Below, in pieces: positions 4,101 to 63,065 of a stretch of 64,000 nucleotides of DNA. The translations under genes were made by a program, and so were the position numbers. Numbering within the stretch: position 1 is the first letter of the stretch; each line of letters starts with the position of its first letter. The notes beneath the pieces are model-generated. The model was not told the DNA's origin and ran no database searches. It worked only from the letters and a program-made list of their open reading frames with translations. Source of the stretch: Mytilus trossulus (taxonomy: Eukaryota); assembly GCF_036588685.1 (NCBI RefSeq), contig NC_086373.1:106454001-106518000 (forward strand), read 5' to 3'.

Positions 4101-5369
4101 CCATATTTGTACTGTCAAAAGCAGGTCACATAACTGTAAATTTTTCCTATCAACAGCAAAGCAGTTACTGGTAGTCTATTCTTACCACAAAAACAATGGC
4201 CACAATTTGTTTCTACCCCATACTCAGCATTATTTAGACAGATTGGACAGGTAGCACTCCCATCATTGGCATTACGTCTGGGTAGTTGTTGCTGTGGATG
4301 ATCATGCCCAATTACCTCCCTTGTAGCAGTGACGCTGGCAGCACTGTCAGGATGGATCCTCAATAAACCTTGTCTTTGGCTGCAAATATTTTACCTTATT
4401 AATTTTTTTTATCTTTACTCTGAAATATGAACAGATGAGTTACTGTCTATCTTTGTTGGTTTTTTTTTAACTGTACATTACTTAGTTGTAAAACTTGTGT
4501 CTCATCAGTTGTGGTTTTTTTTTAGTTTTGGTCCATAATATGTTTCTTCAATTATGCTTGATGTTTGCTTTATTTACAGTGGCAAATATCTCATCCATGT
4601 CAAGGATGAAAAAAAGTTAACAGTTTGTATAATTGGTACAGCCCCTGGCACTCTATACAAGAGGCATTAGATTTATGGTCCCCATCCTGGCATGACTTGC
4701 TGCACATTTATACTTCCCCATGGCCAAACAAATGTCCCATTTAAGCAAAGGTTTTACTAACTGTGAGAGTTGACCATAGGATTACATATTTATATACCTT
4801 CAGTCAATCATTTGCAAATATGATTTTTCTAGACATGTATATTTCTTCTGACAATTATTTCAATCTTGCTTTACAGTTAATATCTTCAACTATATTTTTT
4901 TCCCAAAAGTTTAAATAAATGTGTCTTTTTGTTAACAATAAATTGATCTCTTATATTAAGACCTTGGGACTATTTTTATGCCTGCAAAAGACATTAAGTG
5001 TTACCTTTGACCCTCTTTCTGTCCATCCGTCCCATTTCAGTTTCAGACTTTAACTTCAGTTTTTCTCATCAAAATTATGTTATTTTGTAAGTCAATATCT
5101 GTTTTTTATACTGCATTTATTTATCAGAATTAAAACGACTTAATTTGACAACAAAACATCATCTCAATATCGGCAGGTATGTAATTATTGGTAACGACAT
5201 GGTGGTCACTCATCTTAATATCATCAGATAATAGACCAGTGGTAACTCACCTTAATCTGATCAGGTACATGACCAGTGGTACTATAAGGGCAAGAAGAAC
5301 AATAAATGCATATATCAATTCATCACCAATACCTTCTACCATTGTAGCTTTTCTAAAATATCCACCCAT
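1172..5369 (-). CDS. RNF170: RING finger protein 170, ER-membrane E3 ubiquitin ligase (261 aa, 5 coding exons)
   Basis: Minus-strand exons 5369-5251, 4379-4186, 3556-3480, 1968-1849 and 1447-1172, all GT-AG, total 786 nt in frame. N-terminal VEGIGDEL plus a hydrophobic TM segment; C3HC4 [50 protein letters not shown]; [11 protein letters not shown]; C-terminal DUF1232-like [22 protein letters not shown]. These are all RNF170 hallmarks. Confidence 0.95.
1453..1597. repeat. 72-bp tandem duplication abutting the RNF170 last-exon acceptor
   Basis: GTAAAAACATGTTATT.TGGGTATGGCTCTGATGAAAAGTGAGTTTATAAATATACAGTAACATC at 1461 and 1533. Confidence 0.9.
3650..4170. repeat. Degenerate about 37-bp tandem repeat in an RNF170 intron, interrupted by an interspersed repeat
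   Basis: Recurring ACTGTACATTTGTACTGTCAACAGCAG; an insertion at about 3750-3945 contains two inverted GCCAATGAGACAACTCTCCA cores. Confidence 0.75.
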
Positions 5370-21100: not shown

Positions 21101-24100
21101 GTGAGGAGAAATATTTTTCTCCCACCATCAAGAAATGTTAAAATAGCATGAAAATTTGAGAATAACTTTTCCTTCTTTTTCTTTGACATTTTCCTGAAAG
21201 TTATATTGTCATTTAATGAGTCTTATTATTTCAGAACACAGAGTTAACATCTATAGCTGAGGAAGCCAGAGGATTAAAAGATGAATTAGATGTTTTACGT
21301 CATACATCAGAACAAGTTGTAAGTTCATACATTTTACACAGTTCTACTACACTTTGGTCATTGTAACCTACATTTTACACAGTTCTACTACACCTTGGTC
21401 AGTGTAACCTACATTTAACACAGTTCTACTACACCTTGGTCAGTGTAACCTACATTTTACTCAGTTCTACTACACCTTGGTCAGTGTAACCTACATTTTA
21501 CACAGTTCTACTACACCTTGGTCAGTGTAACCTACATTTTACTCAGTTCTACTACACCTTGGTCAGTGTTACCTACATTTTACACAGTTCTACTACAATT
21601 TGGTCAGTGTAACCTACATTTTACACAGTTCTACTACACCTTGGTCAGTTTAACCTACATTTTATATTATGAAAGTTTGAGGTTAAGATGAATCTTTGAT
21701 ACTGTTTTCACCTCAATATTACTTAAAATGACAACATCAATGATATAATTAATTATATGTCAACCTTAAAGTGTAACACTTACTTATTTTTCAGACAAAA
21801 TATGAAACAATGATTGAATCATACAAGAAAAAGTTAGGTGAGTTTGTGTGAATTATTCCTATGAAAAAAGGTAAATGTCCTGAATTATTTGAGCAGAAAA
21901 GAGGTCTACTGAAGTTATTTTTTTATAAATATGAACATTAAGTTAATCAAATTAAACATTACCCTTGACTCAAACTCTCTAAAATGATGCATGGTCAGAA
22001 TAATACCAATTAACATATAATTTTAACACATTTCTTTACATAATCTGTTAAAAGAATCAAAATTTAGATATTTATTTAAGAATTGAATGCCTCTTTTTGG
22101 GTTGTAAAAGCATTGACCAAAGTACTTTTTGTATGAAGCGTGGAAGCCTTCATTCTAAAAATGGTCAATACTTCTACAACCCTATGAAATTGCTTAAAGT
22201 AGCATTCAATACTTATAATTATGTTGGCTATGATCATGAAAACATGACTACTATCAAGTTTTTCTTTTTATTTACCTGTGCACTTTATTCTGGAAACTTG
22301 TGTCATCATTGCATGTTACAGTTCATGCAATTCATTTTGAAATAAAGAATGATGTGAGATTGCTGTAAGCCAATCAAAATAGCATATAACACTGTGTATC
22401 ATCAGTTCAGCGGATATAGGTACTAACCAAGCGGGCATAATCGATTTTGACCTTACAAAATAATGTGTATAATAATGAAACATACATCTTATATTATTAT
22501 TTTACTTAACAGATGAAATGGGAGATTTAAGGGTACAAGTGAAACTGTTAGAAGAGAAAAATACAAAATACATGCAGGAACAACTAGAGATGGAAGAGGT
22601 AATAACCTGATATCATACCTTACATATATGATAAACAATTCTATTTGTTAACACAGTATTATGTGATGTGGAATAGTGAGTTAATTTCATTTTAATACAA
22701 GGAAGGATGATCTACCATGAAATTTTACTCTCAGTAATGAATAACCATAGTATTCACTGGTTGAGCTTATTGATTATATTTATACATAAGTTACCTCCCA
22801 TTACAATGAAGTGACAGAAGTATGTAAACAAAGTGGCAACAGTCTTGTTAGAAATGTAGGCAAAATTTCTGAATAAAACAAAATGTATAGGGATTTTTTC
22901 AAAAAAGAAATATGTCTAATGAATTATTCTTTAACAATAAAAATGTGTATTTTCTAAAGGAAATAAATTATTGACTTTATTACATATTTAATTTGACTAT
23001 TTTCAGGAAATGAGAAAGTCTGGTTCTATGAAGCAACAGTTTGATATGTACAAACGTCAGGTCCATGAGCTTCAGAACAAGCTGTATGATGAGACAAAGA
23101 GGGCTGATAAGTCTGACTTTGAAGCTAAGAGAGCTGTAGATAAAATGGCAACACTACAGAGAGAAAAAGAGGTAAACAAACATTGATTCTGGTATGGTAA
23201 TACTATGACAAATGGTGCTTTGTGCAACATAGTGGACTCTTTTGAACATGATTGAAACTAATTATTCTGTTAAAGTTGTCATTGTCAATTTAGTGTATGT
23301 AAACAAATTTAGAAAAATCGTATAGTTAAACACACACTTTTATTTGATCAGACTGGCTCATGAAAACATTAGATATATATTAATCATATAATTCGCCTTT
23401 TCAGAATCTAAAGGAATATGGGTGATCTAGTTGTTTGTTCACCAAAAGGAAAATAACGTTACATCATTGGTTGAATATCTATTGTTTGGAACATTTTAAA
23501 CAAATCACAACGTTTTAGTGTACACTTTCGAAAATATTACCCAGAATGCATAAGATTCTAAGGACAAATTATCCAGGTACAAATGTACATTAATAACTGA
23601 ATGCTTTTCTTTCTTTTTTCTACAGAGAATAGCAACAGAAAGGGATTCACTCAAAGAAATGAACGACGAAATGAAATGTACACAGCTACAGACATTAGAT
23701 GATAATGAACCAAACGATCTAACATCCACGCCCAGAGTGGAAATGTTATCCCTACCCCCAGATATTAAGTATGTTTGTTTCGATCCTTTCCCCTGGATAT
23801 TAAGTATGTTTGTGTAATAGTATGCAGAAAACATCTTTGCTTTATAGTTTTAACAATGATTGGACTCTTTTCATCAATCTTGGAATATTTTGTTATCAAG
23901 AGGCTTTTGTGAAAAGAACATCTTTAAAATACTATATTCACTCCAATGCATCTATTAAAATCTTTGTTATTGTTTCGTTTCAAGCAGCTAAGTTTTAATT
24001 TTTATAAATCTTGAAAGATGTAAATAGAGGAGTTGTGAAGTCACTATGAAGCATGTCAAAAAGATGTGACACAATTTTGGTATTGCAAAGCACTCTAGCC

Positions 24101-27100
24101 ATAGACTATTTCAAGTCCATTGTTAATGTATAATAATAATAAGCCCTGTTGTATTTAACTTAAAGTGTTGTGTTTGTCTTATTATTAATTTTAATTACCT
24201 GAATCATCTAATAAGATGTTAAAAAAAAAAGTGTTTGGATTTTGTACAATGAAATATACATATGAAAAAGAAGATGTGGTATAATTGCCAATGAGACAAC
24301 TCTCCTCAAGAGACCAAAATGACACAGAAAACAGAAATTAATAACTATAGGTCACTGTACGTCTTTCAACAATGAGCAACGCCAATACAGCATAATCAGC
24401 TATAAAAAGCCCAGCGATGACAATGTAAAACAATTTGTATGAGAAAACTAACAGCTTTATTTATATGAAAAAATTAACAAGAAACAAATAAGTTTCACTT
24501 AAACAAAGGACAACCACTGAATTACAGACTCCTGACTTGGGATAGACACATACATGCATAATGTGGTAGGGTTAAATGGCTGCAAGTGTTCTTTTTAAAG
24601 AATACCTCCAACATAACTGAGGCTTATTTGCAGCCATAATTGTGTCAGTGTGAAAGGTTGCAGTGTGCCCGAAATTATTGTCTTGTTATTTTTACAGAGA
24701 GAAAATTTTACGATTAGAACATGAAAACAAGATGTTAAAATTGCGATCTAACAGTACTGATGGAGGTGACAATGACCAAGTACTACAGTCCATGCTGGAT
24801 GACACAAACTCCAGAAAGAATGAACTGGAAACAGAATTAAGGTTAGTTATCATCATACAGTGTGGTCAATATTACGATTAGCCAATATGTAAAAATAGAA
24901 AACAAGGTCTATTTATATAGGTCACAGTTACTACATTTATATAGAACAAAGAAAAAATATGAATTTCATAATCTTAATCAAAATGCGAAAAATTATCATA
25001 AAACAAAAAAATAGAAAAATTACCAAAAAAACAATCTGCAAGGAATGTTTACAAACCTGTAACACATATTATTTGAAAACAGTTACAGGTAAAGAATAGA
25101 AAATCTGACTTAAAATGTTTGAAATATTTAATATTTGGCATTAATGCTGTATTCTCACTCGTAGGTTATTACAAGGAAAGCTTGCAATTGCATTTCAACA
25201 CCCCTTTGATGGGTATGTCTTTCACCTTTATAAAAACTTTCCTTTTCTTTTATTTCCAATTTTGGTAAAATTGATGTTTTATTTTGTTATTTTCTTTCGC
25301 TATTTTTATTTTTTTTGCTGGTATAATTTATGGATGCATATCATCCTCAGCTTTTTTGCTAGAACCAATGATTTATGGGTAACCATATTATTATAATAAG
25401 CTGTATTTATTATTCCACATATTACAAAAGAGAAGGGATAAACCAAATGAATATTTAAACAAAAGTAAAAAAGAAACTTCCAAAAGACTAACAACAGTAC
25501 ACAAAAAACAACATAGAAAACAAAAGACTGAGCAACACAAACCACACAAAAAATCAGGGGTGATTTCAGGTGCTCTGAAAGGATAAGCCAATCTAGCTCT
25601 ACATATGGCACTGATTGTTTTTGTCATGTAAGAGCAAAGCTAGGGTACCCCTCTGCTTTAAAGAGTGGTACATAGTTAAAAGCTGTCAGTCTATTCCTCA
25701 CTGAATGCTCAATAAGATAGTTTATATTGAATAGCAACCTTACATAGATATATGGTCACATAAAATGAAAGTGATCCCTATTGATTTTCAAGTTAATATC
25801 TCTAAGGTCATGGTCACTTAATATGCCAAAAATAGTATTGGAAAGTGGTTTCATAATAAAAAAAATATAATTACTTTTAGCTGTGTTCCGAAGGTTAAAA
25901 TTTGGAATCAGGAGCTATCAGGTTTATAAATACGTAGTGTTTATTTGTTTATCAAATTTATCAATTCAGTTAACTTTGAATTCTACCAAGAATTATTCAC
26001 AGCTATGAATACATTATCTTGTTTTTTATATAAATGTTGCCCAGGGAAAATTTCTTGCTTGAAGGGACTTCGCTATAGATTTTCAAGGGTCGACCTCAGC
26101 TATTGTTGTTTCAAGATATATTTTGTAAAATAGCTTTGCACAGAACTTAAATAGAATTGTAAGGAAATTGGTTTATACTCTTATATATTTTAACACATCT
26201 CTTTTGGGTATATTCTCAAAAATATATTTTCTAAATATCTCATCACCAGAATTCATGAGAGACATATTAAAAGTGCCAGACTGTTGTTGCTTTAAGATGA
26301 GTACAGTGTAACCTGCTAAATCCAACACCTGAGAATACCAACATCCTGCTTTAACGGACACATGTTCCTGGTCCCACAACATGTCTATCCTTGTAGATCA
26401 AACCTGAGTATTTCGACACCCTGCTTTAACCAATACATTTTCTTGGTCCCACAACGTGTCTATCCTTGCGGAATAAACCTGAGTATTCCATCACCCTGCT
26501 TAATATGACATTTTTTTCTAGTCCCCAAGTGTGTCAGTTTACACAGGTTACACTGTACCTTTAACCTTGTAAGTGTTCTCTGTCATACACACTGAACAAA
26601 CATCAAATTTATAAGTATGTCTCGACAGTTTAAATCTTTCAGATTATTCATTTATTTTCATAATAACCGTGAACTTATTTTGACATTTTCATGTGCGATT
26701 ATAAAAATTCACTGAATATCTGTTTCTAGGATAGCCAACCAGAAAATAATGGAGTTAGAAAGCCAAGTAGAGGACTTACAAGAAAATCAAAAGACAGTTT
26801 CTAATGAAGAAATAATTGTGATGAAGAAAAAGTTGAATGAACAGATTCAGAGGACACAAGAAAAAGACAATCAGTTAACTAAAATAAAAACAGTTCAGGA
26901 TGAACAAGAATCAAAACTCAGTGCTAACTCAGATAAAATACAAGAACTACAAGATCAGTTACATAAAAAAGAAGATGAAATTAAATTGATGGAGGCAAAA
27001 TATAAAAAATATCTAGACAAGGCTAGATGTGTAAGTATTGAGAGCTTGATTTAACAATGTCTGGCTTAGTAAAAAGGGAAATATATCAAATACAAATCTC

Positions 27101-39081: not shown

Positions 39082-42000
39082 ATGGAATATAGAAGAGACA
39101 ATGGACTAGTAGTAAGTGATGAACCAGAAAATGACAGTAATGAAAGCAAACGAATGGACAAATATCGCGTATCTGATGAACAGTGGAAACTTATAGAGGA
39201 ACGACTAAATGGAGGTTCAACAAATGCTGAGAGATCAGGCTCTCAAAGCAGTAATAGTAAATTATCGAAATATAGAATTTCCGGCGAACAATTGGATCAT
39301 TTAGAAAAACGAATGAAATCCAATGGAATTGATCCTAGTCAATCGTCTACACCTCTACGACAAGACAGGTCAGCTTCTTTAAAACAGCACAATAATTATG
39401 AACTTCTAGCAAGACAAGATTCAGCGGACAGTGGTTACGCCAAACTTGATCACATTCGAAATGGATTACATCCGCAAGATATTCCTGATTATGAAAAAGT
39501 AAAGAAATCACCCCATCCTAATCGTAAAGAAAGGTTAGTTTATATTATCATCTTAACAGTTAAATAATATCAATAACTTATTTACATGTATTTTCGTGTT
39601 CATCATGATCCCTTTAAAAGTCAACACATCTTTTTCTCGAAGTATACATACATGTTATTTTTCTCGTTATTACTTTCTTCTAAATAGAGAATTATTGGTA
39701 TTGCATATTGGAAATGGTATCATGATTTATCTTTACATTCAAACTTCTAAGCAACAGTATGTCATTTTTGCAATTTATAGGTTATGAACGATTCCTCTTT
39801 CTGAAATATATTTAGTTCCTTTAATTTTTGTTTTGTTTACCTTGTTGTTTTTGGCTTCCAGTATACCTTGGCGTGATCGTACCTTTCAAATTTAATTCTG
39901 TGTAATATCGCAGTTTGATCGCGATTAGTATGTCATGTGTTCATATATTATACTTCTTGTGTATCTGTTAAATGTATCAAGGATTTTTTGTAGGTTAGCT
40001 TGTTAAAAAATATGTTCAATTATTTGAACATTTGATTTAACTTAAAATTTCAGTCAACGTGTTTAGCATTCCCTTATCTGTCAGGGCATACAATATCAAC
40101 GGACTTCTGATATTAGCCATTTTCTTCTTGTGGTCATTGCTTCATTCTGAAACCAAACAGTTGGCTGGATATTGTTATAAACAAATTTGTCTGTCGGGGA
40201 GTTACTGCATCATCTAAAATAATTTTACGGGTGGAGAACTTGTCATCTACTGTATAAAATGCAGCAAATTCAACGTCTAAATTCCTGTCCGACTCGGCTT
40301 CAAACTCAAACGGACGCCTCTCGAGGGGTTCATGTGACCGAGGAGTCTAAAGTTCATCTACATTGATCCTTTGCCTATCAACTCTTGTCTTGCTTGTGGC
40401 GAGGTGTGCTCGACACCAATCTCAATCTGCCAACTTTGCAAGTTTTCCTGTCGGCGGATCTCTGCAGTTATCCAACCAACTTTTTACTCATTAGATCTCA
40501 AAACAATTATTTTATTTAAATATTTCAAAACTAATATTAAAGTTTTTTCTACTTTAAATTGACATTTTCTTAATACAAGCAATGGTGTACATCAAGTTCA
40601 TTTGAATTTTGGTGAATATAGTGTCTCATTGACAATCATACCAGATTTCTTTATTTTATATATGTAAAATGTATGTAACCTTTTAAAAGAAATTAGAAGT
40701 TACTTTCAATTTTACTGTTCGTTTTATGAGATTTAAATTAGAAAAATTGTGTAATGAATATCTGAGAAAAGATTTCTTCCAGTTTTCACAATGACTTAAA
40801 TACGAAAAAGTCAATATAATAGGTATGCACTGTTATAAGTTATTAATAAAAGAAATATATATTAACTGCCACATTCCTTACGTCTTTTGCCATATCGATA
40901 TATTTTTTAGAACTTGATGATTTCATGAACGTTGTTTGTATCTGATACGTTGCCAGGAACCCGAAATTACAAAAACGATGAGACATAGAAAGTTCACACC
41001 TCATTTTATAAAAGAATAGATGTGAATAAGGAGTAAAATATTTCTTAATTAGGAAAAAAAAGCAGGTTGGCTCTCTTTAAACTGGAACTTAAAGTCTGAA
41101 TCACAATCCTTTAAAGGCATTATGTATAATTAGTTAATGACTAACAGCGTAAATCGACCTGTTTTAAATGTTATAGAGATTTACTCTGACAAAGAAATAT
41201 CAGGATCATTGAATTCTACAATCGGATCATCGATCATTGTAGTAAACAATTTGTATTTAAAATTTTGAATTATTTTCATTTAATTGGGAGAGAAAATGCC
41301 ACATAAAAGGTAGGATTCTAATTTCTCACAATGTTGTATATATGAGAATAAGGGTAAAGAGATAAAACAGTAACATTTTGGCAAGTTTCTAAATCTAATA
41401 TTGTTAAAACTTGTTAATTAACTAACAGAGGAGTGACAAGCGTGTGTGAAATGTATTTTTAAAACTTGTTAATCAATAGTTTTTTGTACAGTTAACAAAT
41501 AACATCAATGATCTTTTGTATTGACGGATTTTCCAATAAAAATCTTTGTGACTTTTTTTTTTGACGGTATTTGCATATACTGTTTATCTTCCAAGAAAGA
41601 TTTCAAAAACATCGTTTGTATAGGGATTTGCCAGATTGTGACATCGAAAACAGTTATCAAAGGTACCAGGATTATAATTTAATATGCCAGACGCGCCACA
41701 CGCGCCAGACGCGCGTTTCGTCTTCAAAAGACACATCAGTGACGATCAGTTATAAAGCCAAACAAGTACAATGTTGAAAAGCATTGAGGACCCAAAATTC
41801 CAAAAAGTTGTGTCAAATACGGCTAAGGTAATCTTTTCATGGATAAGAAAACCCTTAGTTTTACGAGAAATTAAAAGTTTTGTCAACAATAAATTTACTA
41901 AAATGACCATACAATTGGTATTCATGTCAACACCGAAGTGCTGACAACTGGGCTGGTGAAAACCTCGGAGACGAAACGTCCACCAGCAGTGGCATCGACC

Positions 42001-45000
42001 TAGTGGTGTAAATAGTTATCAAAGGTACGATTGACTGCTATTGCATCTATTCTGAATATCAAAAATGTGGTCATTTTTATAAATTTCCTGTTTACAAAAC
42101 TTTGAATTTTTCGAAAAACTAAGAATATTCTGATTCCGAGAAACGAATACCTTAGCCGTATTTGGCAAAACTTTTTGAATTTTGGATTCTCAATGCTCAT
42201 GCTCTTCAACTTTGTATTTGTTTGGCTTTATAAATATTTCGATATGAGCGCCACTGATGAGTCTTATGTAGACAAAACGCGCGTCTGGCGTACTAAATTA
42301 TTATCCTGGAACCTTTGATAACTATAGGTAAAGCTACCTAGATTTGTTTAGGGATTTAACTGATTTTAACATCGATAAACTATTATTACCTCTATTTTAT
42401 AGGATAAATTACTTAGATTTATATAGCATAGGGATTTACTACATTGTAACATCGATAAACTTCTATTGCCTCTATTTTATAGGATAAATTACTTAGATTT
42501 ATATAGCATAGGGATTTACTACATTGTAACATCGATAAACTACTATTGCCTCAATTTTATAGGATAAGATACCTAGATTTGTGTAGGGATTTACCAGATT
42601 GTAAATAGTTATCAAAGGTACCAGGATTATAACATCGATAGCCTACTACTGCCTCTATTTAATAGGATAAGATACCTAACATCGATAAACTTCTATTGCC
42701 TCTATTTTATACGCTAAGATATTTAGATTTGTATAGGGATTTACTAGGTTGTAACATCAATAAACTTCTATTGCCTATATTTTATAGGATAAGATACCTA
42801 GATTTGTTTACGGATTTACCAGATTGTAACATTAAAGAACTGCTATTGCTTCTATTCATTTAAGATACCAAGAAGGCATTAATCAAAACGATAAAAAGAA
42901 AAAAAGGACAACTACATGATCAAACGAAAAAATGGCTAAAAGACCCGCAATAGGTTTGGCATGTCGTCATTTAACCAGGTTCCATACACCATTTTTTCCT
43001 TAAAATGTCCTGTACAAGTCAGTAATATGTTAGTTCTTACCAAATAGTTCGTTTCTATGTGTGTTATATCAACGTTTGTTTTTTGTCGCACTTCGGTGTT
43101 CCTGTTGTTCTTTTGTTTTCCTCTTATAGTTGATGTGTTTTCCTCGGTATTTGTTTGTAACCGGGATTTGTTTTGTCTCAATTGATTTATGACTTTTGAC
43201 TGGTATACTTCTGTTGCCTTTATTTGAAAACAGTCAAGATATAGCACGTATTTCAATCTGAGTACTACGTGCGTCAATAGGATAAAAGAATCTCGTGTGA
43301 CTGCACAGTCAGTAAGAACATAATACAGACAAGATCATTATGCAGGGTGGACGATGTCGGATAGACGCTAGAGTTAATAAATAAGAGGAAAGTATTATTG
43401 CCATCAACGTATTATTGTTTATGTAATGGTTTGCAAAGTCTATAAAAAAATAGACTTCAAATAAAATACCTTTACCGTTATCTGTTTATTGAATTTTCCT
43501 TTCAGTTCATTACAACAGAAGATTCAGCATAGAAAAGAGTTGTCACAAAGTATACAGTCTTTATCATCTGAAGGTAAGAATGTATTTATAGAAGGTTAGA
43601 ATACGATTCTGAAATGTATATTTTCATATTTTCATATTTCAAGATTGACGACACGATCCAAATTTCGAATATGCATTCTATAAAAAGGGTCAATATATCG
43701 GGACATAACAGTTAAAAAAATATTTTAAAAACAAGAATGTGTCCAAAGTGCACGGATGCCCCTCTCGCACTATCATGTTCTATGTTCAGTAAACCATGTA
43801 ATTTGGGCCAAAAATCTAATTTGGCATTAGAATTAGAAAGATCATATGATAGGGAGCATGTGTATTAAGTTTCAAGTTGATGGGACTTAAACTTCATAAA
43901 AAAAATACCTTGACCAAAAACTTTAACCTTAATCGGGACAGACGGACAAATGGAAGAACGAACAGACAGACGAACAAACGGGGGCACAGGTCAGAAAACA
44001 TAATGCCCCTCTATTATCGTAAGTGGGGCATAAAAGTGATGATTTTGACAATTTTAGTATTGGGTAAATTTCTATTTTATCTGTGTTTATTTAAATGAAC
44101 AAAAGGAGATGTAGGATAAATCATAATAAACCAATAGGCTAGCGATATATGTTTGGATATTTATGGATAAATCAAAATAAAATGAGTTAGATTTACAATT
44201 TACGTTTAAGAAAATGAACACTTTGTTATAGTTATCTTAAATAAACTTTGTGTACCGATACCAATAATGTTTTCATAAAATGTTCCTATTTTCTTCGAGT
44301 TAATGGTGACACTTTTTTCTTGGAGTTAATGGTGACACTTTTTTCTTGGAGTTAATGGTGACACTTTTTTCTTGGAGTTAATGGTGACACTTTTTTCTTG
44401 GAGTTAATGGTGACACTTTTTTCTTGGAGTTAATGGTGACACTTTTTCTTGGAGTTAATGGTGACACTTTTTTCTTGGAGTTAATGGTGACACTTTTTTC
44501 TTGGAGTTAATGGTGACACTTTTTTCTTGGAGTTAATGGTGACACTTTTTTCTTGGAGTTAATGGTGACACTTTTTTCTTGGAGTTAATGGTGACACTTT
44601 TTTCTTGGAGTTAATGGTGACACTTTTTTCTTGTAGTTAATGGTGACACTTTTTTCTTGGAGTTAATGGTGACACTTTTTCTTGGAGTTAATGGTGACAC
44701 TTTTTTCTTGGAGTTAATGGTGACACTTTTTTCTTGGAGTTAATGGTGACACTTTTTCTTGGAGTTAATGGTGACACTTTTTTCTTGGAGTTAATGGTGA
44801 CACTTTTTTCTTGGAGTTAATGGTGACACTTTTTTCTTGGAGTTAATGGTGACACTTTTTTCTTGGAGTTAATGGTGACACTTTTTCTTGGAGTTAATGG
44901 TGACACTTTTTTCTTGTATTTCAGCCATACAAGACCTCAAACCACTGACAATTCCAAAAGATGGAGATCTACAAGGATTTTCTGTGGAAGAAATGTCAAC

Positions 45001-45181
45001 ATTCTTTCGGTACATGCGTATTGAAGACAATATAGTGCAAAGACTTAGCAAAAAAAATGTTGACGGAATTAAATTTTCCAAATTAAAAGATACAGACCTT
45101 GAGAATATAGGAATAAAGAATCCAATTGTCATGCATTTTAGAGACAGGAGTTGTAAAAAGAAAATTCCATTCATGTTATAA
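39082..45181 (+). CDS. SAM-domain adaptor A (258 aa): disordered N-terminus with tyrosine motifs, C-terminal GAREM-type SAM domain
   Basis: Exons 39082-39533 (phase 2), 43506-43573 (phase 1) and 44925-45181, 777 nt in frame. The last exon encodes DLQGFSVEEMSTFFRYMRIEDNIVQRLSKKNVDGIKFSKLKDTDLENIGI, a SAM pattern resembling the GAREM C-terminal SAM. Additional small exons cannot be excluded. Confidence 0.75.
41703..41744 (-). ncRNA. Degenerate hammerhead ribozyme copy
   Basis: Same fold as the 38116 copy, but the core reads CTGATGT instead of CTGATGA. Confidence 0.6.
42249..42290 (+). ncRNA. Degenerate hammerhead ribozyme copy
   Basis: cgcca-CTGATGA-gtct..agac-AAAA-cgcgcg-TC-tggcg; the catalytic GAAA is mutated to AAAA. 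Confidence 0.6.
42330..42865. repeat. Degenerate about 71-78-bp tandem repeat
   Basis: Recurring AACATCGATAAACT.CTATTGCCTCTATTTTATAGGATAA..TACCTAGATTT..TAGGGATTTAC. Confidence 0.85.
43730..44033 (+). repeat. Interspersed repeat with internal (GACG/GACA)n microsatellite
   Basis: ACAAGAATGTGTCC..CACGGATGCCCC..GCACTATCAT..CTATGTTCAGT.; a reverse-complement copy lies at about 53240-53526 in the equivalent last intron of adaptor B. Confidence 0.75.
44297..44916. repeat. 26-bp tandem repeat, about 24 copies, ending in the acceptor of the SAM-A exon
   Basis: Unit GAGTTAATGGTGACACTTTTTTCTTG, with the T-run 5 or 6 long. Confidence 0.95.
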
Positions 45182-46501: not shown

Positions 46502-48358
46502 TGTATTATGTCTTTGGGATTGTATTCTGGTGGTACACTTACTGTCTGTTTTATGTCTTTGGAATTGTATTCTGGTGGTACACTTACTGTCTGTTTTATG
46601 TCTTTGGAATTGTATTCTGGTGGTACACTTACTGTCTGTTTTATGTCTTTGGGATTGTATTCTGGTGGTACACTTACTGTCTGTTTTATGTCTTTGGGAT
46701 TGTATTCTGGTGGTACACTTACTGTCTGTTTTATGTCTTTGGGATTGTATTCTGGTGGTACACTTACTGTCTGTTTTATGTCTTTGGAATTGTATTCTGG
46801 TGGTACACTTACTGTCTGTTTTATGTCTTTGGGATTGTATTCTGGTGGTACACTTACTGTCTGTTTTATGTCTTTGGAATTGTATTCTGGTGGTACACTT
46901 ACTGTCTGTTTTATGTCTTTGGGATTGTATTCTGGTGGTACACTTACTGTCTGTATTATGTCTTTGGGATTGTATTCTGGTGGTACACTTACTGTCTGTA
47001 TTATGTCTTTGGGATTGTATTCTGGTGGTACACTTACTGTCTGTTTTATGTCTTTGGGATTGTATTCTGGTGGTACACTTACTGTCTGTATTATGTCTTT
47101 GGGATTGTATTCTGGTGGTACACTTACTGTCTGTATTATGTCTTTGGAATTGTATTCTGGTGGTACACTTACTGTCTGTATTATGTCTTTGGAATTGTAT
47201 TCTGGTGGTACACTTACTGTCTGTTTTATGTCTTTGGAATTGTATTCTGGTGGTACACTTACTGTCTGTTTTATGTCTTTGGAATTGTATTCTGGTGGTA
47301 CACTTACTGTCTGTTTTATGTCTTTGGAATTGTATTCTGGTGGTACACTTACTGTCTGTTTTATGTCTTTGGAATTGTATTCTGGTGGTACACTTACTGT
47401 CTGTTTTATGTCTTTGGAATTGTATTCTGGTGGTACACTTACTGTCTGTATTATGTCTTTGGAATTGTATTCTGGTGGTACACTTACTGTCTGTTTTATG
47501 TCTTTGGAATTGTATTCTGGTGGTACACTTACTGTCTGTTTTATGTCTTTGGAATTGTATTCTGGTGGTACACTTACTGTCTGTTTTATGTCTTTGGAAT
47601 TGTATTCTGGTGGTACACTTACTGTCTGTTTTATGTCTTTGGAATTGTATTCTGGTGGTACACTTACTGTCTGTATTATGTCTTTGGAATTGTATTCTGG
47701 TGGTACACTTACTGTCTGTTTTATGTCTTTGGAATTGTATTCTGGTGGTACACTTACTGTCTGTATTATGTCTTTGGAATTGTATTCTGGTGGTACACTT
47801 ACTGTCTGTTTTATGTCTTTGGGATTGTATTCTGGTGGTACACTTACTGTCTGTTTTATGTCTTTGGAATTGTATTCTGGTGGTACACTTACTGTCTGTA
47901 TTATGTCATTGGAATTGTATTCTGGTGGTACACTTACTGTCTGTTTTATGTCTTTGGAATTGTATTCTGGTGGTACACTTACTGTCTGTTTTATGTCTTT
48001 GGGATTGTATTCTGGTGGTACACTTACTGTCTGTTTTATGTCTTTGGGATTGTATTCTGGTGGTACACTTACTGTCTGTTTTATGTCTTTGGGATTGTAT
48101 TCTGGTGGTACACTTACTGTCTGTTTTATGTCTTTGGGATTGTATTCTGGTGGTACACTTACTGTCTGTTTTATGTCTTTGGAATTGTATTCTGGTGGTA
48201 CACTTACTGTCTGTTTTATGTCTTTGGAATTGTATTCTGGTGGTACACTTACTGTCTGTTTTATGTCTTTGGAATTGTATTCTGGTGGTACACTTACTGT
48301 CTGTTTTATGTCTTTGGGATTGTATTCTGGTGGAATACTTACTGGCCATTTTATGTCT
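46502..48358. repeat. 45-bp tandem satellite, about 41 copies
   Basis: Unit TTATGTCTTTGG(G/A)ATTGTATTCTGGTGGTACACTTACTGTCTGT(T/A), near-perfect. It is the source of the three overlapping about 650-aa ORFs. Confidence 0.97.
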
Positions 48359-48385
48359 TGGACATTGTATGTTTGTGGTATGTGG

Positions 48386-50808: not shown

Positions 50809-53800
50809 ATGGCAGAGGAGGACGATAATTTTGTCAGTAAATTTACTGATTTGTCAACACTACCAGTCAATGGTCACGGAGGGCCAAACAGTGGGTCATC
50901 ACGACTGACTAACGGTCATGACAGGTAAGGCCAGTTACTCATTTTATATCATTTGAACTTTTCTGACCATCTCTAGATTCAATTCAAGAGGCGAGATAGG
51001 ACAATGCTCTCATTATATCTTTTTTCGAAAGTCCTATGCATTTCTTAAATAGCATTGTCCATAAATTAAAAATTCATAGGATGAGAAACAAAACTATTAA
51101 GGGAACAATAAAAAGAACTAGATAGTAGAGGAGGCACGAATACACGGACAGTGTACAGATATTAAGCAATCAAACGGGAAAAAATATATATAGAAAAACA
51201 CAAATTAAGAAAAACCACAAAACAAAACATACAATATAGATAAGTACAATAAAAAAAACATAAAAAAGAGAGAGAATGAAATTTGTACGATGCTGAAATT
51301 TTATGGTCCAGCTAAACAAACTAATACAAAATACACAGACAATGTATCAATATGACTTTATTTCTTTTCATTGATTATGAATTACTTTCATCAGTACCTA
51401 ATTAGTAGGCACTTTTTGTTCTATACTATTCAATATTGATCGTCTTATGTTAAGAGAGGGATTATTTTAAATCTAAGTTTCCTCGTATAACAAAACTTAA
51501 ACCGACTTATAGACAGACAGTTTAAACTGGACATTGATTTGTTTGAACTTGACCAGCTTTAAGGTAGGTTTACATCTAACATGTTGTGTATTGGTGTTTT
51601 TTCACAATGAGTGAGCAGACTTTTTATCCTTTTTCTGAAGTATACTATATTTTTGGAACATAGACAATGTAACACTATCTATATTTATATTGTTGAAATA
51701 CCAAGAGTGGATGTTTTAGCCCAACTACTCAAAAAACAAACACAAGACATTCACACTGTCCTTGTATTATTCTGATACAAAGCAAATGTCTACATGACAC
51801 ATATCTATGAAGTATAAAATATCACAAGATTATTTAGATTTAAAATTTCATTGAATATTTCCAGTTGACAAAATCTGTAACATTTTACCTACTCCTACTT
51901 TAAATGAATCATGTATTCTATTGGTTCATTCTATTTATAAATGAAGATTTAAACCTTTTATAGCTTATTAAATTGTGAATATAGATTAAAATCATAATAG
52001 TTAAAAACAAAGTATTTGGCTTGATAAGACTGAGGATCACATTAGTTGTGGGTGTTAGGAATCTTACTACAAAGTATATATAGTATTATATATACACATT
52101 TTATGGAATAATTTAGTCTACCTAACTGGAACAGAAATACATCAGTATGACAGGAGATTACAGGTATTTTCAAATATTTTAGTTTTTTATTTATTTATAT
52201 GATTGACCTTTTTTTTTTTCTCTTTTATGTGATGGACAATATGTTGATGATAGATCAGTCTAATAAACAAAATCAGAGATCTATAGTATTTTAAGTAGAT
52301 TGATGATAGATAAAACAAAATTCAGTGTTATGTTTCATTTCAGTACCAGAGAACTTCCACCAGTGCCAAATGACTTTCGTCCATCACTTCCAGTTAATCC
52401 ACCAAGGATGATTCCCCCACGGATAACAGTCAGCAGACCCCCATCAGGTAGATATAGAAAGTCTTAACTACTCTTTATGTTTTATTACGAGTCAGACTCT
52501 ATACTCGAGAGTAAATTAGGAATATCTCAAATAGACATTTATATTCGTTAACCAACGGACAATAGTCTAGAGACAAGCAGAATTAAATCAACATATATAC
52601 ATATAAAATATAAATAAATGAAAACAAATATAAGTATAAATAAAAGGTAGCTAACATAACGTGGTTACGCATTTTTTAACTCCAGTAAATGTTCAAAACT
52701 TCTTTAGTTCAGAGGGATTGATCATCATGTGATCTTTAACTTTATATGTAAGATATTAGGTCTGCTGACAACAGGAAATATAAATATATTTTTTTCTACT
52801 TTCGTCCAGTTATAGCAAGGTACGTACATAGAAAAAACAAATACCTGTCTGTTATTGTAAATTGTTATTACCCCAAGATGCCTTTTGGTTATTTTTGTGG
52901 TAGATTTGCTGTCTCATTGACATGCATCTCATATCACTTCTTATTAATATGTATTTACATTGCATTGATATTACACACACATGTATACTATAGTTTTCTA
53001 TATATCAAAATGATCTTTGAATATTTCGGATAAATGATATATTCGTATAAAAATTCAACAAACCAGAAATATCGAAGAAATAAATCACCAATAGTTTCTA
53101 TAACATCGCAGACCCAGTTTCCAAATTACCGTGACCTAGTATCCAATTGAACCAATTTTGTTAACAAATGCAGCCATAAATCTTTTTTTTTACAGATTTT
53201 TTTTAGAGAACAAACCATTTGTGTTGTTTTGTATGACCAATTATGGGCATTATGTTTTCTAGTGTGTGCTTTTGTTCGTTCGTGCGTCCGTTCGTCCGTC
53301 CGTCCGTCCGTCTGTCCCGCTCAGTCAAGTTAAAGTTTTTCGGCCGCTGTAGCTTTTGATGAAGTTGAAGTCCAATCAACTTGAAACTTAGTACTCATGT
53401 TCCCTATGATATAATCTTTTAATTTTTAATGCCAATTTGATATTTTACCCCATTTTCACGGTCCACTGAACATAGAAAATGATAGTGCAGATGGGGCATC
53501 CGTGTATACTATGGACACATTCTTGTGGGTTTTTTTTTATTATTATTTACCATTATACACGTCACTCAGTTTAGTTAAAAAAATAATTTCCACGAAATGA
53601 TCACATTATTTAACAACAAATAAAGTATTCAGTGAAAAAAAAGTAAAATCAATGAAAATGTCTCCTGCGACATTCACAAAAGTCAGCTGAAATTTGTCAC
53701 AAGCATCTATTTCTTACAAAGTGCACAGCATGGACTAATGTCAAATTGTTATGAAATCTGGACAAATAAAACAAAACAATCTTTTTTTATTTTTTATGGA

Positions 53801-54345
53801 TTTGTAGTTAAGCATGGCTGCAATTTAGATTTATGTACTTCTTATTATACAGACACATGGGTTGTACTGAGATCGGTCCAAACACATTTTTTTTCTGGTT
53901 TCACATGTATTCAAAATTAAACTTATGGAATTATATACTTTTATATTCAATAAGGATTAAAAATCTTCTCTTTTTCTTGAATAGACATAGGTGTTAACAT
54001 TGTCAAATGAGTATACTTGGATATATGTACACACACAAGTTCTGATTTACCCTAATGTTTATTTTTTCAGTAATTTCCAAGTTTATCCCAGAACATGAAA
54101 TAATCATTCCAAATGACGGGAACGTATCAAAGTTTACAGTAGAAGAACTCTTAACGTTCCTCAAACATATGGGAGTTAGTGATAGAATAGTTAACCATTT
54201 AAGGAAGAAAAGTGTGGACGGTAAAAGATTTTCAAGACTTAGTGATTCAGAATTGGAAAATGTGGGGATTAAAAATCCCATAATAATATATTTTAGAGAC
54301 AAAAGTAGTGCCAAATCTAAAAAGTCAGCACCATTTATGTTGTAA
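50809..54345 (+). CDS. SAM-domain adaptor B (about 164 aa), paralogue of adaptor A with a proline-rich middle exon
   Basis: Exons 50809-50924 (phase 2), 52344-52447 (phase 1) and 54071-54345, 495 nt in frame, with the same intron phases as adaptor A. The SAM exon aligns with A (IP.DG....F.VEE..TF...M...D.IV..L.KK.VDG..FS.L.D..LEN.GIKNPI...FRD.S....K..PFML*). The middle exon reads TRELPPVPNDFRPSLPVNPPRMIPPR. Confidence 0.75.
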
Positions 54346-58622: not shown

Positions 58623-61600
58623 ATGGCGGATAATAATGAAAGGACTAAAAACAGCACAGTTTTTACGCTGAAGGATTTCACGGAATGTTTCACACCACCT
58701 AAAACATTCAAAGTTCTAGGGGGACGTGGATTGTACAGTAATGCCCATACTACCGCACTCCGAGTGGGTGACTCTTTATACCTACATACCTTAGCGGTTG
58801 AGTGGATATGTTTGTCATTTTTTGACACAGACACAGGTATACGACGTGAGGTAAAGGTCCCTCCAGACAGTCACATTAAATTCAATATCGTACACAGATC
58901 AGAAGAAGCTTTTCAAAGGATTTACACTACAGTAGGTGAACTATTAGAGGCCTGGCCGACAAGATTTCAAGCCAACTATGGACGAGAGGATCCCTATCTT
59001 CCTCAAATATTCAGGAAAGGTGAACGGTTTAGATTCATTCGGAGAGCTCAGAATCCAAAGGACAGGAAACTGTGTTTAGAATGTGAGGACGAATCTGGAC
59101 ATATTTTGACCTTACCCGGTAATTGTAGAGGGGATTTCACTGTACTGGACGATCCCAAGTCTTATAATCTCCAGGAAATTGTGGCCTTCGGGGATACGGA
59201 AAGGAAATTAAAATTTTCAGAGGAAAATATTCAGTTAATAGCTGTTGATAACGATGAAAGTTCATTCTATACAAATGTAGGCAATAACGGAGAAATTTTA
59301 ACCAAGCTAACAGGACTACCTCTGACTTATAAAGGTCTGATTACTATGCGCAAACCTAACTTCTTTGTTATTGTTTCACCACAAGATAATCACGATATAA
59401 AGTGGAAAATATCACTCGAAGACGAAATAGAAGTGATGGATCAGCTAGACGACTTTCTACCATCAACCAGAGACATGCCTCTGAATGAATTCATAGACAA
59501 TTTCGAGTTAGACCTTCCTGTTATTGCAAGAATCTCTAATTACGGCAATAAAATAACTCGTTTCGAAGATCATCTTTCTCCTGGAACTGAAGTAATTATT
59601 CATCGTTTTGATAAAGATGTTGATAGAATTCTTGCAAGTACCAAATGTGATATATTTAGTTTAGGAAGTGATGTTCAGGGTAAATTCGACAAATGTAGCA
59701 GACGTTTTAATTCCGTTCAAGCAGTTTTAGACACACGAGAAAAGATCAAACTCAAAGTAACAGAATCAATAGCATGCGATGTTCCAGAACCTTTCTGTTT
59801 AAAATGCGGCGACATTCTTAAATGCACAAATTTTAACATACAAAACGTGAAAATAAGATATGGCAAAAAAGTATATGGTGAATGTCAAGTTGTTCAGTGG
59901 GACATATTAGATGACACTGGTGGTCGTGCAATAATTAAACTACCTGCAGATCTTGAAGTGACGTTGCTAGAAATTGCAGAAGACGACGGTTTTGATGTGT
60001 CGAACATTTTACAGTATCGCGTTGAAGTGCCTATGGACGCTTATTCATTAGATAGTGATAGCTTTGTGCCATTTAATCAAAGTATCCGTTTCGAGCATTA
60101 CGTTTCTGACCCTCTTGTACTCATTTCGCCTATACCTCGCAATTCTGATACAAAACACTCATGTCTCGATGCCAAAATTGACCTTTGTTTAATGGTGCCT
60201 TTACGTCATGACTTGACATTACATCTCAGAGAACGATTGCATTTCCCACCTAGTTACTTCATACTGCCAAGACGGAAGAAATGGCTGTCAACGGGACCAG
60301 AGAAAATATCACTTGAAATATACAACAATTTAATAAAATATAATGATCAAGCTTACGAAGATTATGAATGCAAAGATGAACAAGTTGATACTGCCTCAGG
60401 AAATACTAATTTTGTCGACAGGTAAATTCTTTTGTCATGTGTAACAATATATTTGTTTAATAGTATATTTACTATATATATTTATGCATACAAAGGTATA
60501 GTGTACTATCAATGTACTATCAACACTTAATATCGACAGCAAAAGAAAAGTTATTGGCCAAGATTGGTGACCCTATAGACCGAAGAGATAGCCGAAAACG
60601 AAATATACTTAAGCAAAATAAATAAATATCCAACATCAAAAAGAAAAGACTGAAAGAAATATGGTCTTCGCTTCATTAAAAGCAACCGAATAAATGGTAT
60701 CCCGAGTTTAAATTGTCTTTCATATTTGCACTTGAACTTATAATTGACATTATTTACATTGAACCACTGATAAACCCTTTTACGTGTTATTCATGAATTA
60801 GAAGTGAAAAAAGTCTCGAAAAAGTCCGATTGTCATTTTTATTCCACACTACTGTCATAAGTGTGATGTAGTCTTATTTGTGCTGTGTAGTGTTATAGAG
60901 TACACTTAGATGTGAATTTCTATCTTATATATATATATATATATGACTCTTGTACATTTTTATACACTTGTCTGTCTTAGGATAATAACGTCTTTTTTCG
61001 AGTATTCGAATTTCTTTTCTAAGGACAGTACAACTTATCATTAACAAATTTGCCGTTTGCTCGTTTTGAATTTTTCTCGGAGTTCGGTATTTTTGGGGAT
61101 TTTACTTTTTAAAATCAAATGGAAATAACTCTTCATTTCGTTCGTTTGAACAACACTCTAAACGAATAACTGATATAACATCGTCTACTGTTATTTATTT
61201 ATAGGATGAGGGATGGCGTTCGACGTTTATCTAAATTATCACTGAAGATGACAAGGTCAACAAGTCAAATTAATGTACCAGACGAGGAGAAAACACCTGA
61301 CCTTAGACGAAACTACTCTTTCCAAAGCGAAACAAATATTCCTGGAGTATCTAACAATTTATATGAAAGTGACCCCAGATACAACGGTTTGTTCATATAA
61401 AGTCACATGCATGTCATAAACTCTATCTAGAAATAGTAATTTGAGACTCATCTAAAACTTCTCCTTAACACATCTAACACTTCTCCTTAACACATCTAAA
61501 ACTTCTCATGAAATCATCTAACTACACTTCTTAAACACTTAACACTCATCCTGAACACATCTTGTACTTCTGAACACACCTAACACTTCTTCTGAACACA

Positions 61601-63065
61601 TCTAACACTTCTCCAGAACACATCTAACACTCATGAATACATCTAACCCTCTCAAGAACACATTTAAAACCACTCCTGAACCGTCAAACACTTCTCCAGA
61701 ACATATCTCACACTTCTCCTGAACACATTTTACACTTCTGAACACATTTTGCACCACTCTTCAACACATCTATCACTTCTCCTGAACACATCTTTAACAT
61801 CACTCCGAATCACACCTCACACTTCTCCTGAACACATCTTTTACATCACTCCAAGGACGTATAACTAACATCTAATATACGTCCTTGATCACGCCTAAAC
61901 ACATCAAACATCACTCCTAAACACGTCTAACACCTTTCCTGAACACATTTTACACCACTCTTTATTACATCATACACCTTTCCTGAACACATCTTACATC
62001 ACTCATGATCCCATCTAAAACTTCTCTAGAACACTTCTAATACTTCTGAACACATCCAACACTTCTCCTGAACACATCCAACACTTCTCCTGAACACATC
62101 CAACACTTCTCCTGAACATCCAACACTTCTCCTGAACACATCTAACACTTCTCCTGAACACATCTAACACTTCTCCTGATAACACACCTGACACTTCTAC
62201 TTCTCCAGGAACACACCTGACACTTCCACTTCTCCTGGACACATCTAACACATCTAAACACATATTACACCACACTCCTGAAAACATCTAAAAAACTCAA
62301 TATAACGCTGTTTCTGTCAATGTAGTAAATAAATGATTAAATAACGAAGACCAAAATTGAAAAAAAACACTCTTGAAAGACGAAAATCATCCGATACAAT
62401 TTTATTTCATATGCCAGTAATAAATTAATTCTTGAAAGCTACTGTCTTTTGGCACAGTGTTAATATCACACTGTTGGAACATGTCATATTGTGAAGACCA
62501 ACTTGAATTTTGTTTCTTCTCTAAAATGTGTAATGCAGAATAATTTTCGACTGTCAAATTAAATCATTCTAATTATTTTTTTCAGATGACAATATCTATG
62601 AAGATTACTCAGGTGCTATTCGACGTCCAGAGAAAAATAGTAAGTATATAATACACACAAAGTACCAACAGACAATAACAAGACAAACAATATTCATCAC
62701 AGCATTAAATCGAAATATTAAGATTTAGCGTTACGAACCTCACATAAACCTGGGTGTCAACATGTTACAACCCATCATTGTGATGAACCAATATGAATAC
62801 ACTCTGCGTCTGAGAAAAGGGGGACAAGATGTGTTAGACTAACATAGGGAGACGGAAATGATGATTGCAATATAATGGGTACCGACAAGTTCTATGTAAC
62901 ACGAATAAAAAGATGTATAATAACTGACAAATAGTACTTTATTATGCGATCAATTTGTTTGCTATTCAGAAATCAATTGCTGAAATAATTTATTTGAATT
63001 GTTTTACAGAACAATCCGTTGGTAGAAAACTTCTACGGAGACTGTCCAAGAGAGGGAAGAGGTGA
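58623..63065 (+). CDS. THEMIS-like protein with two tandem CABIT domains (696 aa, 4 coding exons)
   Basis: Exons 58623-60421, 61205-61386, 62586-62639 and 63010-63065; 2091 nt, phases consistent. CABIT1: FTLKDFTECFTPPKTFKV..LRVGDSLYLH..YTTVGELLEAWP..KGERF..LECEDESGHILTLPGNCRGDF..YNLQEIV. CABIT2: LNEFIDNFELDLPVIARI..LSPGTEVIIHR..RILAS..GKFDKCSRRFNSV..LKCGDIL..IKLP. Domain call is from remembered family motifs. Confidence 0.85.
61448..62290. repeat. Degenerate about 22-bp tandem repeat after exon 2 of the CABIT gene
   Basis: Recurring AACACATCTAACACTTCTCCTG with strong CA/CT strand bias. Confidence 0.9.

What the first reader, a model, noticed from the sequence alone, without database searches (positions are those of the whole stretch)
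58623..60421. Invertebrate tandem-CABIT (THEMIS-architecture) protein with an asymmetric signature cysteine
Seen: two CABIT-like repeats in one 1.8-kb exon. Repeat 1 keeps the signature (LEC-x7-LTLPGNCRGDF, Cys at 59082). Repeat 2 reads VQW...IKLPADLEVTL, with Trp (59898) where the Cys is expected and no GxF, yet it keeps the THEMIS CABIT2-like PG..(V)IIH..RILAS..GKF....R.F segment. Known: the double-CABIT layout characterises vertebrate THEMIS, while GAREM has a single CABIT. Inference: either the THEMIS architecture predates adaptive immunity or it arose convergently, and the second module has diverged in function.
Basis: partly seen in the sequence, partly recalled or inferred. Interest (0 to 1): 0.7.

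Follow-up and report, generated by a model that had tools for sequence, protein, structure and literature searches.

The report
Split ancestral THEMIS gene in mussel
This mussel gene encodes a two-module relative of the T-cell signalling protein THEMIS, likely descended from the same ancient animal gene, whose lost tail likely survives as two small genes next door, while its odd tryptophan is likely a harmless packing swap rather than a new function.

Summary
In detail: two CABIT modules, Cys at 59082, Trp at 59898. The 1.8-kb ORF is exon 1 of a spliced four-exon, 696-aa gene, 94% like a Mytilus californianus protein. A module tree puts 39 first modules and 39 second modules (molluscs, annelids, hemichordates, vertebrate THEMIS types) on separate branches (98/87, 100/99). 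AU tests reject separate mollusc or vertebrate duplications, so the tandem likely predates adaptive immunity and is not convergent. The Trp occupies the THEMIS Cys413 column but occurs only in 7 mussel-like rows of 67, always with a new Cys on the preceding strand: likely compensated packing, not functional divergence. New here: the protein lacks the proline motif and SAM tail of annelid-type relatives, and the genome's only two SAM domains of that subtype are separate genes 4-14 kb upstream (55 and 50 bits against at most 8 for 40 other SAMs). This points to duplication and fission. Function is inferred: a phosphotyrosine scaffold without THEMIS's Grb2 site. The scan earlier noted the unsplit form in another genome. 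No paper on this was found; the founding 2009 paper was unavailable.

The parts
58623..60421 (+). Coding exon 1 of the tandem-CABIT gene (aa 1-600), ends at a phase-2 GT donor
58656..59450 (+). CABIT module 1 (about aa 12-276), canonical core motif intact
59082..59084 (+). Cys154, signature cysteine of module 1 (column of THEMIS Cys152)
59469..60347 (+). CABIT module 2 with end helix (about aa 283-575); predicted core plus inserted SH3-like head
59823..59825 (+). Cys401 on the strand before the signature site; a large hydrophobic residue in most other modules; likely compensates the Trp
59883..59885 (+). Cys421 (the upstream Cys); not the canonical site
59898..59900 (+). Trp426 in the column of THEMIS Cys413
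60354..60365 (+). Proximal acidic tyrosine motif (YEDY) where THEMIS has its proline motif
61205..61386 (+). Exon 2 (low-complexity tail)
62586..62639 (+). Exon 3, distal acidic tyrosine motif like THEMIS2 Y660
63010..63065 (+). Exon 4 coding part, basic C-terminus and stop; contigs run on to at least 63557
50809..54345 (+). Gene B: exons 50809-50924, 52344-52447 (proline-rich), 54071-54345 (SAM-like); 164 aa; separate spliced transcript
39082..45181 (+). Gene A (predicted only): exons 39082-39533 (tyrosine motifs), 43506-43573, 44925-45181 (SAM-like); 258 aa
   Evidence: no reads were laid on it

Best explanation
This is a spliced four-exon mussel gene for a 696-aa protein with two CABIT modules, likely the single mussel counterpart of vertebrate THEMIS1-3, likely cut loose from its ancestral SAM tail by duplication and fission, and predicted to work as a phosphotyrosine signalling scaffold. 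Shown: gene structure, two modules, module-by-module grouping with THEMIS, no PxRPxK motif, no SAM, two adjacent genes with the matching SAM subtype. Inferred history: a CABIT-CABIT-proline-SAM gene existed before protostomes and deuterostomes parted; vertebrates kept the proline motif and dropped SAM; in this lineage tandem copies lost opposite halves, leaving two SAM genes upstream and one CABIT gene. Inferred for the Trp: Cys426 to Trp was offset by a large residue to Cys at 401 in the same hydrophobic core. Inferred mechanism (about 0.4): Src-type kinases phosphorylate the two acidic tyrosine motifs, SH2 proteins dock there, the basic C-terminus holds the protein at membranes, and the CABIT pair modulates an SHP-family phosphatase as in THEMIS and GAREM, without the constitutive Grb2-SH3C clamp.
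For: Tree: 39 first modules one side of a branch at 98/87, 39 second modules at 100/99; 90 and 98 on a second alignment and model. AU rejects mollusc D1+D2 (p 4e-6), deuterostome D1+D2 (p 0.0033), vertebrate D1+D2 (p 0.030). Vertebrate-only profiles cross-match by position: first-module profile 19.6 vs 3.1 bits, second-module profile 38.4 vs 1.1. Only tandem gene among 7 CABIT matches in the genome (a lower bound). Trp in 7 of 67 rows; Cys in 27 of 27 other mollusc rows and 18 of 18 vertebrate-type rows. Cys at 401 in 7 of 7 Trp rows, in 0 of 75 modules with the canonical Cys and in 4 of 7 with an aromatic there, one of them an unrelated row. Module 2 model pLDDT 92.9 has the same weak structural neighbours (FeoA 3E19, IdeR, ScaR, 3G1J, Hck SH3; Z 4.8-7.4) as reported for THEMIS CABIT2. 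Fission: P0119 (two CABIT, PxRPxK, SAM) finds 3 matches in the genome, the CABIT exon and the two SAM exons; Owenia P0125 ranks the same three first of 4; a SAM profile built without mussel rows scores them 55.0 and 49.6 bits against at most 8.3 for 40 other mussel SAM loci; gene B is a separate spliced transcript. Distal acidic Tyr-Glu motif in 19 of 19 full-length mollusc members and 11 of 11 vertebrate-type ones listed; PxRPxK in 0 of 19.
Against: A vertebrate THEMIS (P0078) as single query found nothing in the mussel genome. The tree lacks vertebrate GAREM, Drosophila Serrano, amphioxus and echinoderms, has long branches (warning) and no known root; the vertebrate AU test is only p 0.030. 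Module 2 is somewhat less conserved than module 1 among close relatives (70-79% vs 78-89%). The Cys401 pairing was noticed after looking, rests on two independent events, and contact was not measured. Only three SAM-bearing tandem proteins define the SAM subtype, one of unknown species. Gene B has a proline-rich exon but no PxRPxK. The THEMIS Y34 site needed for SHP1 binding has no conserved counterpart: Tyr38 lies in another column and is absent in clams. No function was tested.
Confidence: 0.7

Rival explanations
1. The tandem layout arose twice, once in lophotrochozoans and once in deuterostomes or vertebrates, by separate duplications of single-CABIT genes.
For: Vertebrate first modules sit on a long branch (1.2) and support for D1 as a group is moderate (98/87). 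Single-query search with vertebrate THEMIS finds nothing.
Against: AU p 4e-6, 0.0033 and 0.030; second modules group at 100/99; positional cross-match of vertebrate profiles; shared end helix and tail tyrosine motif.
Confidence: 0.07
2. The Cys-to-Trp change marks a new function of module 2 in mussels, for example a new binding surface or loss of a redox role.
For: Trp is fixed in 7 of 7 close relatives; module 2 is a little more divergent than module 1; mollusc module 2 lacks GxF.
Against: The site is buried in THEMIS and its Cys is reported dispensable in vitro and in vivo (review passage). Stem branches to the mussel group are alike for both modules (0.43 and 0.47). 13 of 88 aligned modules lack the Cys, in either position. 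Reciprocal Cys401.
Confidence: 0.1
3. The upstream SAM genes are not a split tail: they were separate adaptors beside the ancestral gene, and annelid-type proteins gained SAM by fusing with such a neighbour.
For: No mollusc or vertebrate tandem protein examined has SAM; the SAM genes lie upstream, not downstream; only this genome was examined.
Against: SAM tails occur on tandem proteins of an annelid (Owenia) and a hemichordate (Ptychodera) and on single-CABIT proteins, so fusion would be needed more than once; genes A, B and the CABIT gene share intron phases 2 then 1 (weak).
Confidence: 0.13

Closest known systems
Vertebrate THEMIS / THEMIS2 / THEMIS3 (PDB 9I3P, 9IAZ, 9UOU)
   Same: Two CABIT modules in the same order and descent; end helix of CABIT2; acidic tail tyrosine like THEMIS2 Y660; top Atlas clusters named THEMIS, 0.93.
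   Different: No PxRPxK; Grb2 hot spots R544/R545 are Ile571/Lys572; Trp for Cys413; no GxF in module 2; both modules in one exon; extra tyrosine motif after the end helix; basic C-terminus.
Mollusc orthologues labelled uncharacterized or CABIT domain-containing (Mytilus californianus LOC127735047, Mercenaria, Mactra, Lottia, Babylonia, Physella, Argonauta, Liolophura)
   Same: Same two modules, no GxF in module 2, tyrosine motifs, no SAM.
   Different: Outside the 7 closest rows they keep the second Cys; four gastropod-type rows lost the first Cys instead.
Annelid and hemichordate tandem-CABIT proteins (Owenia, Paralvinella, Ptychodera; Saccoglossus 'protein THEMIS-like' in RefSeq; unnamed P0119)
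   Same: Same two modules; their SAM subtype matches mussel genes A and B.
   Different: P0119, Owenia and Ptychodera carry the SAM-like domain on the same chain, and P0119 has PxRPxK after CABIT2.
GAREM1/2 and other single-CABIT proteins
   Same: CABIT domain; scaffold role with SHP phosphatases reported for the family.
   Different: One CABIT, then proline region and SAM. Invertebrate single-CABIT rows fall outside both module groups and have another SAM subtype. Vertebrate GAREM itself was not in my set.

Membership tests
CABIT domain superfamily (PF12736) | Whole-protein score over Pfam's cut-off | tested here: met
   58 bits against 24, two stretches
CABIT domain superfamily (PF12736) | Core motif hydrophobic-x-C, 7-26 residues, hydrophobic-x-LP-hydrophobic-x3-GxF in module 1 (motif from PMC9250082) | tested here: met
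   Cys154, Pro165, Gly170, Phe172
CABIT domain superfamily (PF12736) | Same core motif complete in module 2 | tested here: not met
   Trp426, Val446, Leu448; Pfam 20.1 bits under cut-off; yet 105.6 bits with a non-mollusc second-module profile
CABIT domain superfamily (PF12736) | Fold: discontinuous core with inserted SH3-like head | tested here: inconclusive
   Model pLDDT 92.9 with core matches spanning 2-256 and SH3 matches spanning 86-173, all Z under 8; no THEMIS chain was listed, so no direct superposition
THEMIS subfamily (THEMIS1-3) | Two consecutive CABIT modules of the CABIT1 and CABIT2 lineages | tested here: met
THEMIS subfamily (THEMIS1-3) | PxRPxK proline motif after CABIT2 (Grb2 site 1) | tested here: not met
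   No such motif in the 696-aa protein; one PxxP only, inside module 1
THEMIS subfamily (THEMIS1-3) | Arg544 and Arg545 of the end helix (Grb2 site 2) | tested here: not met
   Ile571 and Lys572
THEMIS subfamily (THEMIS1-3) | Acidic C-terminal tyrosine motif (THEMIS2 Y660 type) | tested here: met
   Present in exon 3; 19 of 19 mollusc members; phosphorylation not tested
THEMIS subfamily (THEMIS1-3) | Tyr34-type phosphosite in CABIT1 for SHP1 binding | tested here: inconclusive
   Tyr38 lies in the same loop but 4 columns away and is absent in clam orthologues
THEMIS subfamily (THEMIS1-3) | Binds Grb2 and SHP1/2 and tunes receptor signalling | not testable with these tools
   needs biochemistry
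GAREM subfamily | Single CABIT, proline region and SAM on one chain | tested here: not met
   Two modules, no SAM

The most novel reading that the evidence does not exclude
The ancestral bilaterian THEMIS (CABIT-CABIT-proline-SAM) was split in the mollusc line into a CABIT gene and linked SAM adaptor genes that have stayed together for hundreds of millions of years and still act in one phosphatase-tuning complex, giving a natural dissection of what THEMIS did before T cells.
Probability: 0.25. Interest if true: 0.75.

Novelty: new variant of a known kind. Interest (0 to 1): 0.5.

Why it matters
Papers read here describe the double-CABIT layout only for vertebrate THEMIS proteins and leave the function of the CABIT domain open. 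A single pre-vertebrate origin means THEMIS was recruited to T cells, not invented for them. The mussel locus separates the parts naturally (CABIT pair without Grb2 motif, SAM on other genes), which makes the Grb2-independent job of the CABIT pair testable. The Cys/Trp swap supports the view that the name-giving cysteine is structural. Tempering this: databases already label such proteins CABIT-containing or THEMIS-like, and no function is shown.

Tried and rejected
Foldseek against PDB gave no match at E 0.001 for either model, and VIA-align listed no THEMIS chain; absence is not evidence on the fold. The full-length model was poor (pLDDT 65, pTM 0.36). phmmer of the single protein against PDB sequences found nothing; the family profile did. 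Complex prediction of the CABIT pair with the proline-rich exon of gene B gave no answer (score 0.01); it is no evidence either way. A homologue search from the Ptychodera protein returned only itself. The search for single-CABIT outgroups returned 18 invertebrate-type proteins and no vertebrate GAREM or Serrano. A check for a neighbouring receptor phosphatase gene (THEMIS-PTPRK linkage, recalled; nearest listed match about 3 Mb away among many on this contig) was uninformative. No SAM or CABIT exon in 60 kb downstream. No run was on record as RNA; splicing in contigs is the evidence used. Gene A could not be checked against reads. The Atlas could not be searched with the SAM tail. Rejected: Cys421 as shifted signature; a Grb2-SH2 YxN site at Tyr567 as a conserved feature (it lies in the end helix and is absent in clams). 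Nine paper searches (listings only, top rows) showed no paper on invertebrate tandem-CABIT genes; Johnson et al. 2009 was not held and may cover this.

Full report
1. Observation. The frame 58623-60422 is open for 600 codons, with Cys154 at 59082 and Trp426 at 59898. Pfam CABIT scores 58 bits in two stretches; split, the halves score 42.6 and 20.1 bits, the second under the cut-off of 24. A profile of the protein and 16 relatives finds human THEMIS as its only 3 PDB sequence matches (E 1e-15) and aligns THEMIS Cys413 to the Trp426 column. The exon ends at a GT donor; exons 61205-61386, 62586-62639 and 63010-63065 complete a 696-aa protein matching Mytilus californianus LOC127735047 (94% over exon 1). 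Contigs of 4 of 4 laid runs (4 studies, close relatives, none on record as RNA) skip the three introns. The animal is therefore likely a Mytilus mussel.

2. Family range. A profile search of 1.84 billion representatives gave 92 hits. Vertebrate-type rows were recognised by their PxRPxK motif; one, P0078, was checked against human THEMIS (842 bits). Labels such as 'bivalve', 'mussel-like', 'annelid-type' and 'vertebrate-type' for unnamed rows come from their place in the tree, not from records.

3. One origin of the tandem. I aligned 59 tandem proteins, kept 39 (dropping near-duplicates and forms lacking the CABIT2 head, Owenia among them), cut each into two modules, added 12 single-CABIT rows and realigned. 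With 230 columns and LG+C20, all 39 first modules lie on one side of a branch (98/87) and all 39 second modules likewise (100/99); another aligner mode and model gave 90 and 98, with a long-branch warning. AU tests reject grouping both modules of molluscs (p 4e-6), of deuterostomes (p 0.0033) or of vertebrates (p 0.030). Profiles from vertebrate rows alone match by position. The root is unknown, so tandem duplication and fusion of two older single-CABIT genes are both open; either happened once, before protostomes and deuterostomes parted. Vertebrate GAREM and Drosophila Serrano were not obtained. This is the only tandem gene among 7 CABIT matches in the genome (a lower bound). Against: a single vertebrate THEMIS query found nothing there.

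4. The tryptophan. Of 67 rows, Trp occurs in the 7 closest; 27 of 27 other mollusc rows and 18 of 18 vertebrate-type rows have Cys, as do 7 of 15 remaining rows. Ten of the 27 carry both Cys421 and the canonical Cys, so Cys421 is not a shifted signature. GxF is present in 18 of 18 mollusc first modules and 0 of 18 second modules: an old mollusc trait, separate from the Trp. All 7 Trp rows have Cys at 401, five residues after a conserved Gly on the preceding strand, where most modules have Phe, Ile, Leu or Val; 0 of 75 modules with the canonical Cys have it, against 4 of 7 with an aromatic, one from an unrelated lineage. This was seen after the fact, and contact is inferred from SH3-like strand order (my knowledge), not measured. 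THEMIS Cys413 is buried in the SH3-like head (10.1101/2024.10.01.616165, parts 1-2 of 4 read; PMC13381594, passages and sections 7-8) and is reported dispensable (PMC9250082, passages). The module 2 model is confident (pLDDT 92.9) and returns the same weak neighbours as that crystal paper (all Z under 8). Branch lengths to the mussel group are 0.43 and 0.47; module 2 is modestly less conserved. Functional divergence is not supported by the Trp.

5. The split tail. The protein has no PxRPxK, and the Grb2 hot spots Arg544/Arg545 are Ile/Lys. None of 19 full-length mollusc members has PxRPxK or SAM, while P0119 (unnamed), Owenia and Ptychodera tandem proteins end in a SAM-like domain and P0119 keeps PxRPxK. 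Two SAM-like exons lie upstream at 44925-45181 and 54071-54345. Searching the 1.3-Gb genome with P0119 gives 3 matches: the CABIT exon and these two exons; Owenia P0125 ranks the same three first of 4; the second exon finds only itself and the first. These searches score few candidates, so I fetched 40 of 49 Pfam SAM_1 loci: a profile of the three tandem-type SAMs scores the two exons 55.0 and 49.6 bits and the 40 controls at most 8.3. Gene B (164 aa, proline-rich exon, SAM) is spliced in contigs (intron 1 in 1 of 4 runs, intron 2 in 2 of 4) and has its own 3' end; no listed contig joins it to the CABIT gene. Gene A (258 aa, tyrosine motifs, SAM) is predicted only. Tandem duplication followed by loss of opposite halves explains order and linkage; fusion elsewhere is the rival. 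Only this genome was examined.

6. How it likely works. The tail keeps an acidic Tyr-Glu motif in 19 of 19 mollusc and 11 of 11 vertebrate-type members listed, like THEMIS2 Y660, which binds Lyn (PMC2903609, passages). A second motif stands where THEMIS has its proline motif, and the C-terminus is basic in this protein and several, not all, orthologues. Human CABIT proteins associate with SHP phosphatases (10.64898/2026.06.24.734275, passages). I infer a kinase-switched scaffold that recruits SH2 proteins and tunes an SHP-type phosphatase at membranes without the Grb2-SH3C clamp; about 0.4, wholly untested, and the Tyr34 site is not conserved.

7. Known and new. Passages of PMC3931654 and PMC4082722 describe double CABIT for mammalian Themis proteins and trace the family to cnidarians. 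Nine searches (listings only) showed no paper on invertebrate tandem forms or a split; Johnson et al. 2009 was not held (nothing seen) and no supplements were read. Verdict: a CABIT-superfamily protein and likely counterpart of THEMIS, not a THEMIS by the defining proline motif; new variant of a known kind; interest 0.5.

Noticed in passing
window 1172-4390 (-) and 15168-27054 (+): An RNF170-like gene (DUF1232, RING) lies head to head with a HOOK gene. The same pairing of RNF170 and HOOK3 in human is recalled, not checked.
   Followed up: partly
window 15158-15418: An 87-bp unit in 3 copies contains a splice-acceptor-like site and the start of a HOOK exon; it could give alternative acceptors.
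   Followed up: no
window 46502-48370 and 44289-44916: A 45-bp minisatellite (41.5 copies, 98% alike, open in several frames) lies between genes A and B; a 26-bp array (24 copies) ends just before the SAM exon of gene A. The long ORFs there are repeat artefacts.
   Followed up: partly
proteins P0057-P0066 (7 rows incl. Owenia P0065): These tandem proteins lack the whole SH3-like head of CABIT2, signature site included, so the head can be deleted.
   Followed up: no
proteins P0032, P0033, P0036, P0039: Gastropod-type orthologues (Physella named) lost the signature Cys of module 1 and kept that of module 2, the mirror image of the mussel case.
   Followed up: partly
L001-L007: All 7 CABIT matches of the genome lie on contig C1; two single-CABIT loci are 130-145 kb downstream of the window.
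   Followed up: partly
L020:3989-4330 and L022:1923-2336: Exons 30-55 kb downstream resemble NOL4 (recalled); Pfam gave no match.
   Followed up: partly
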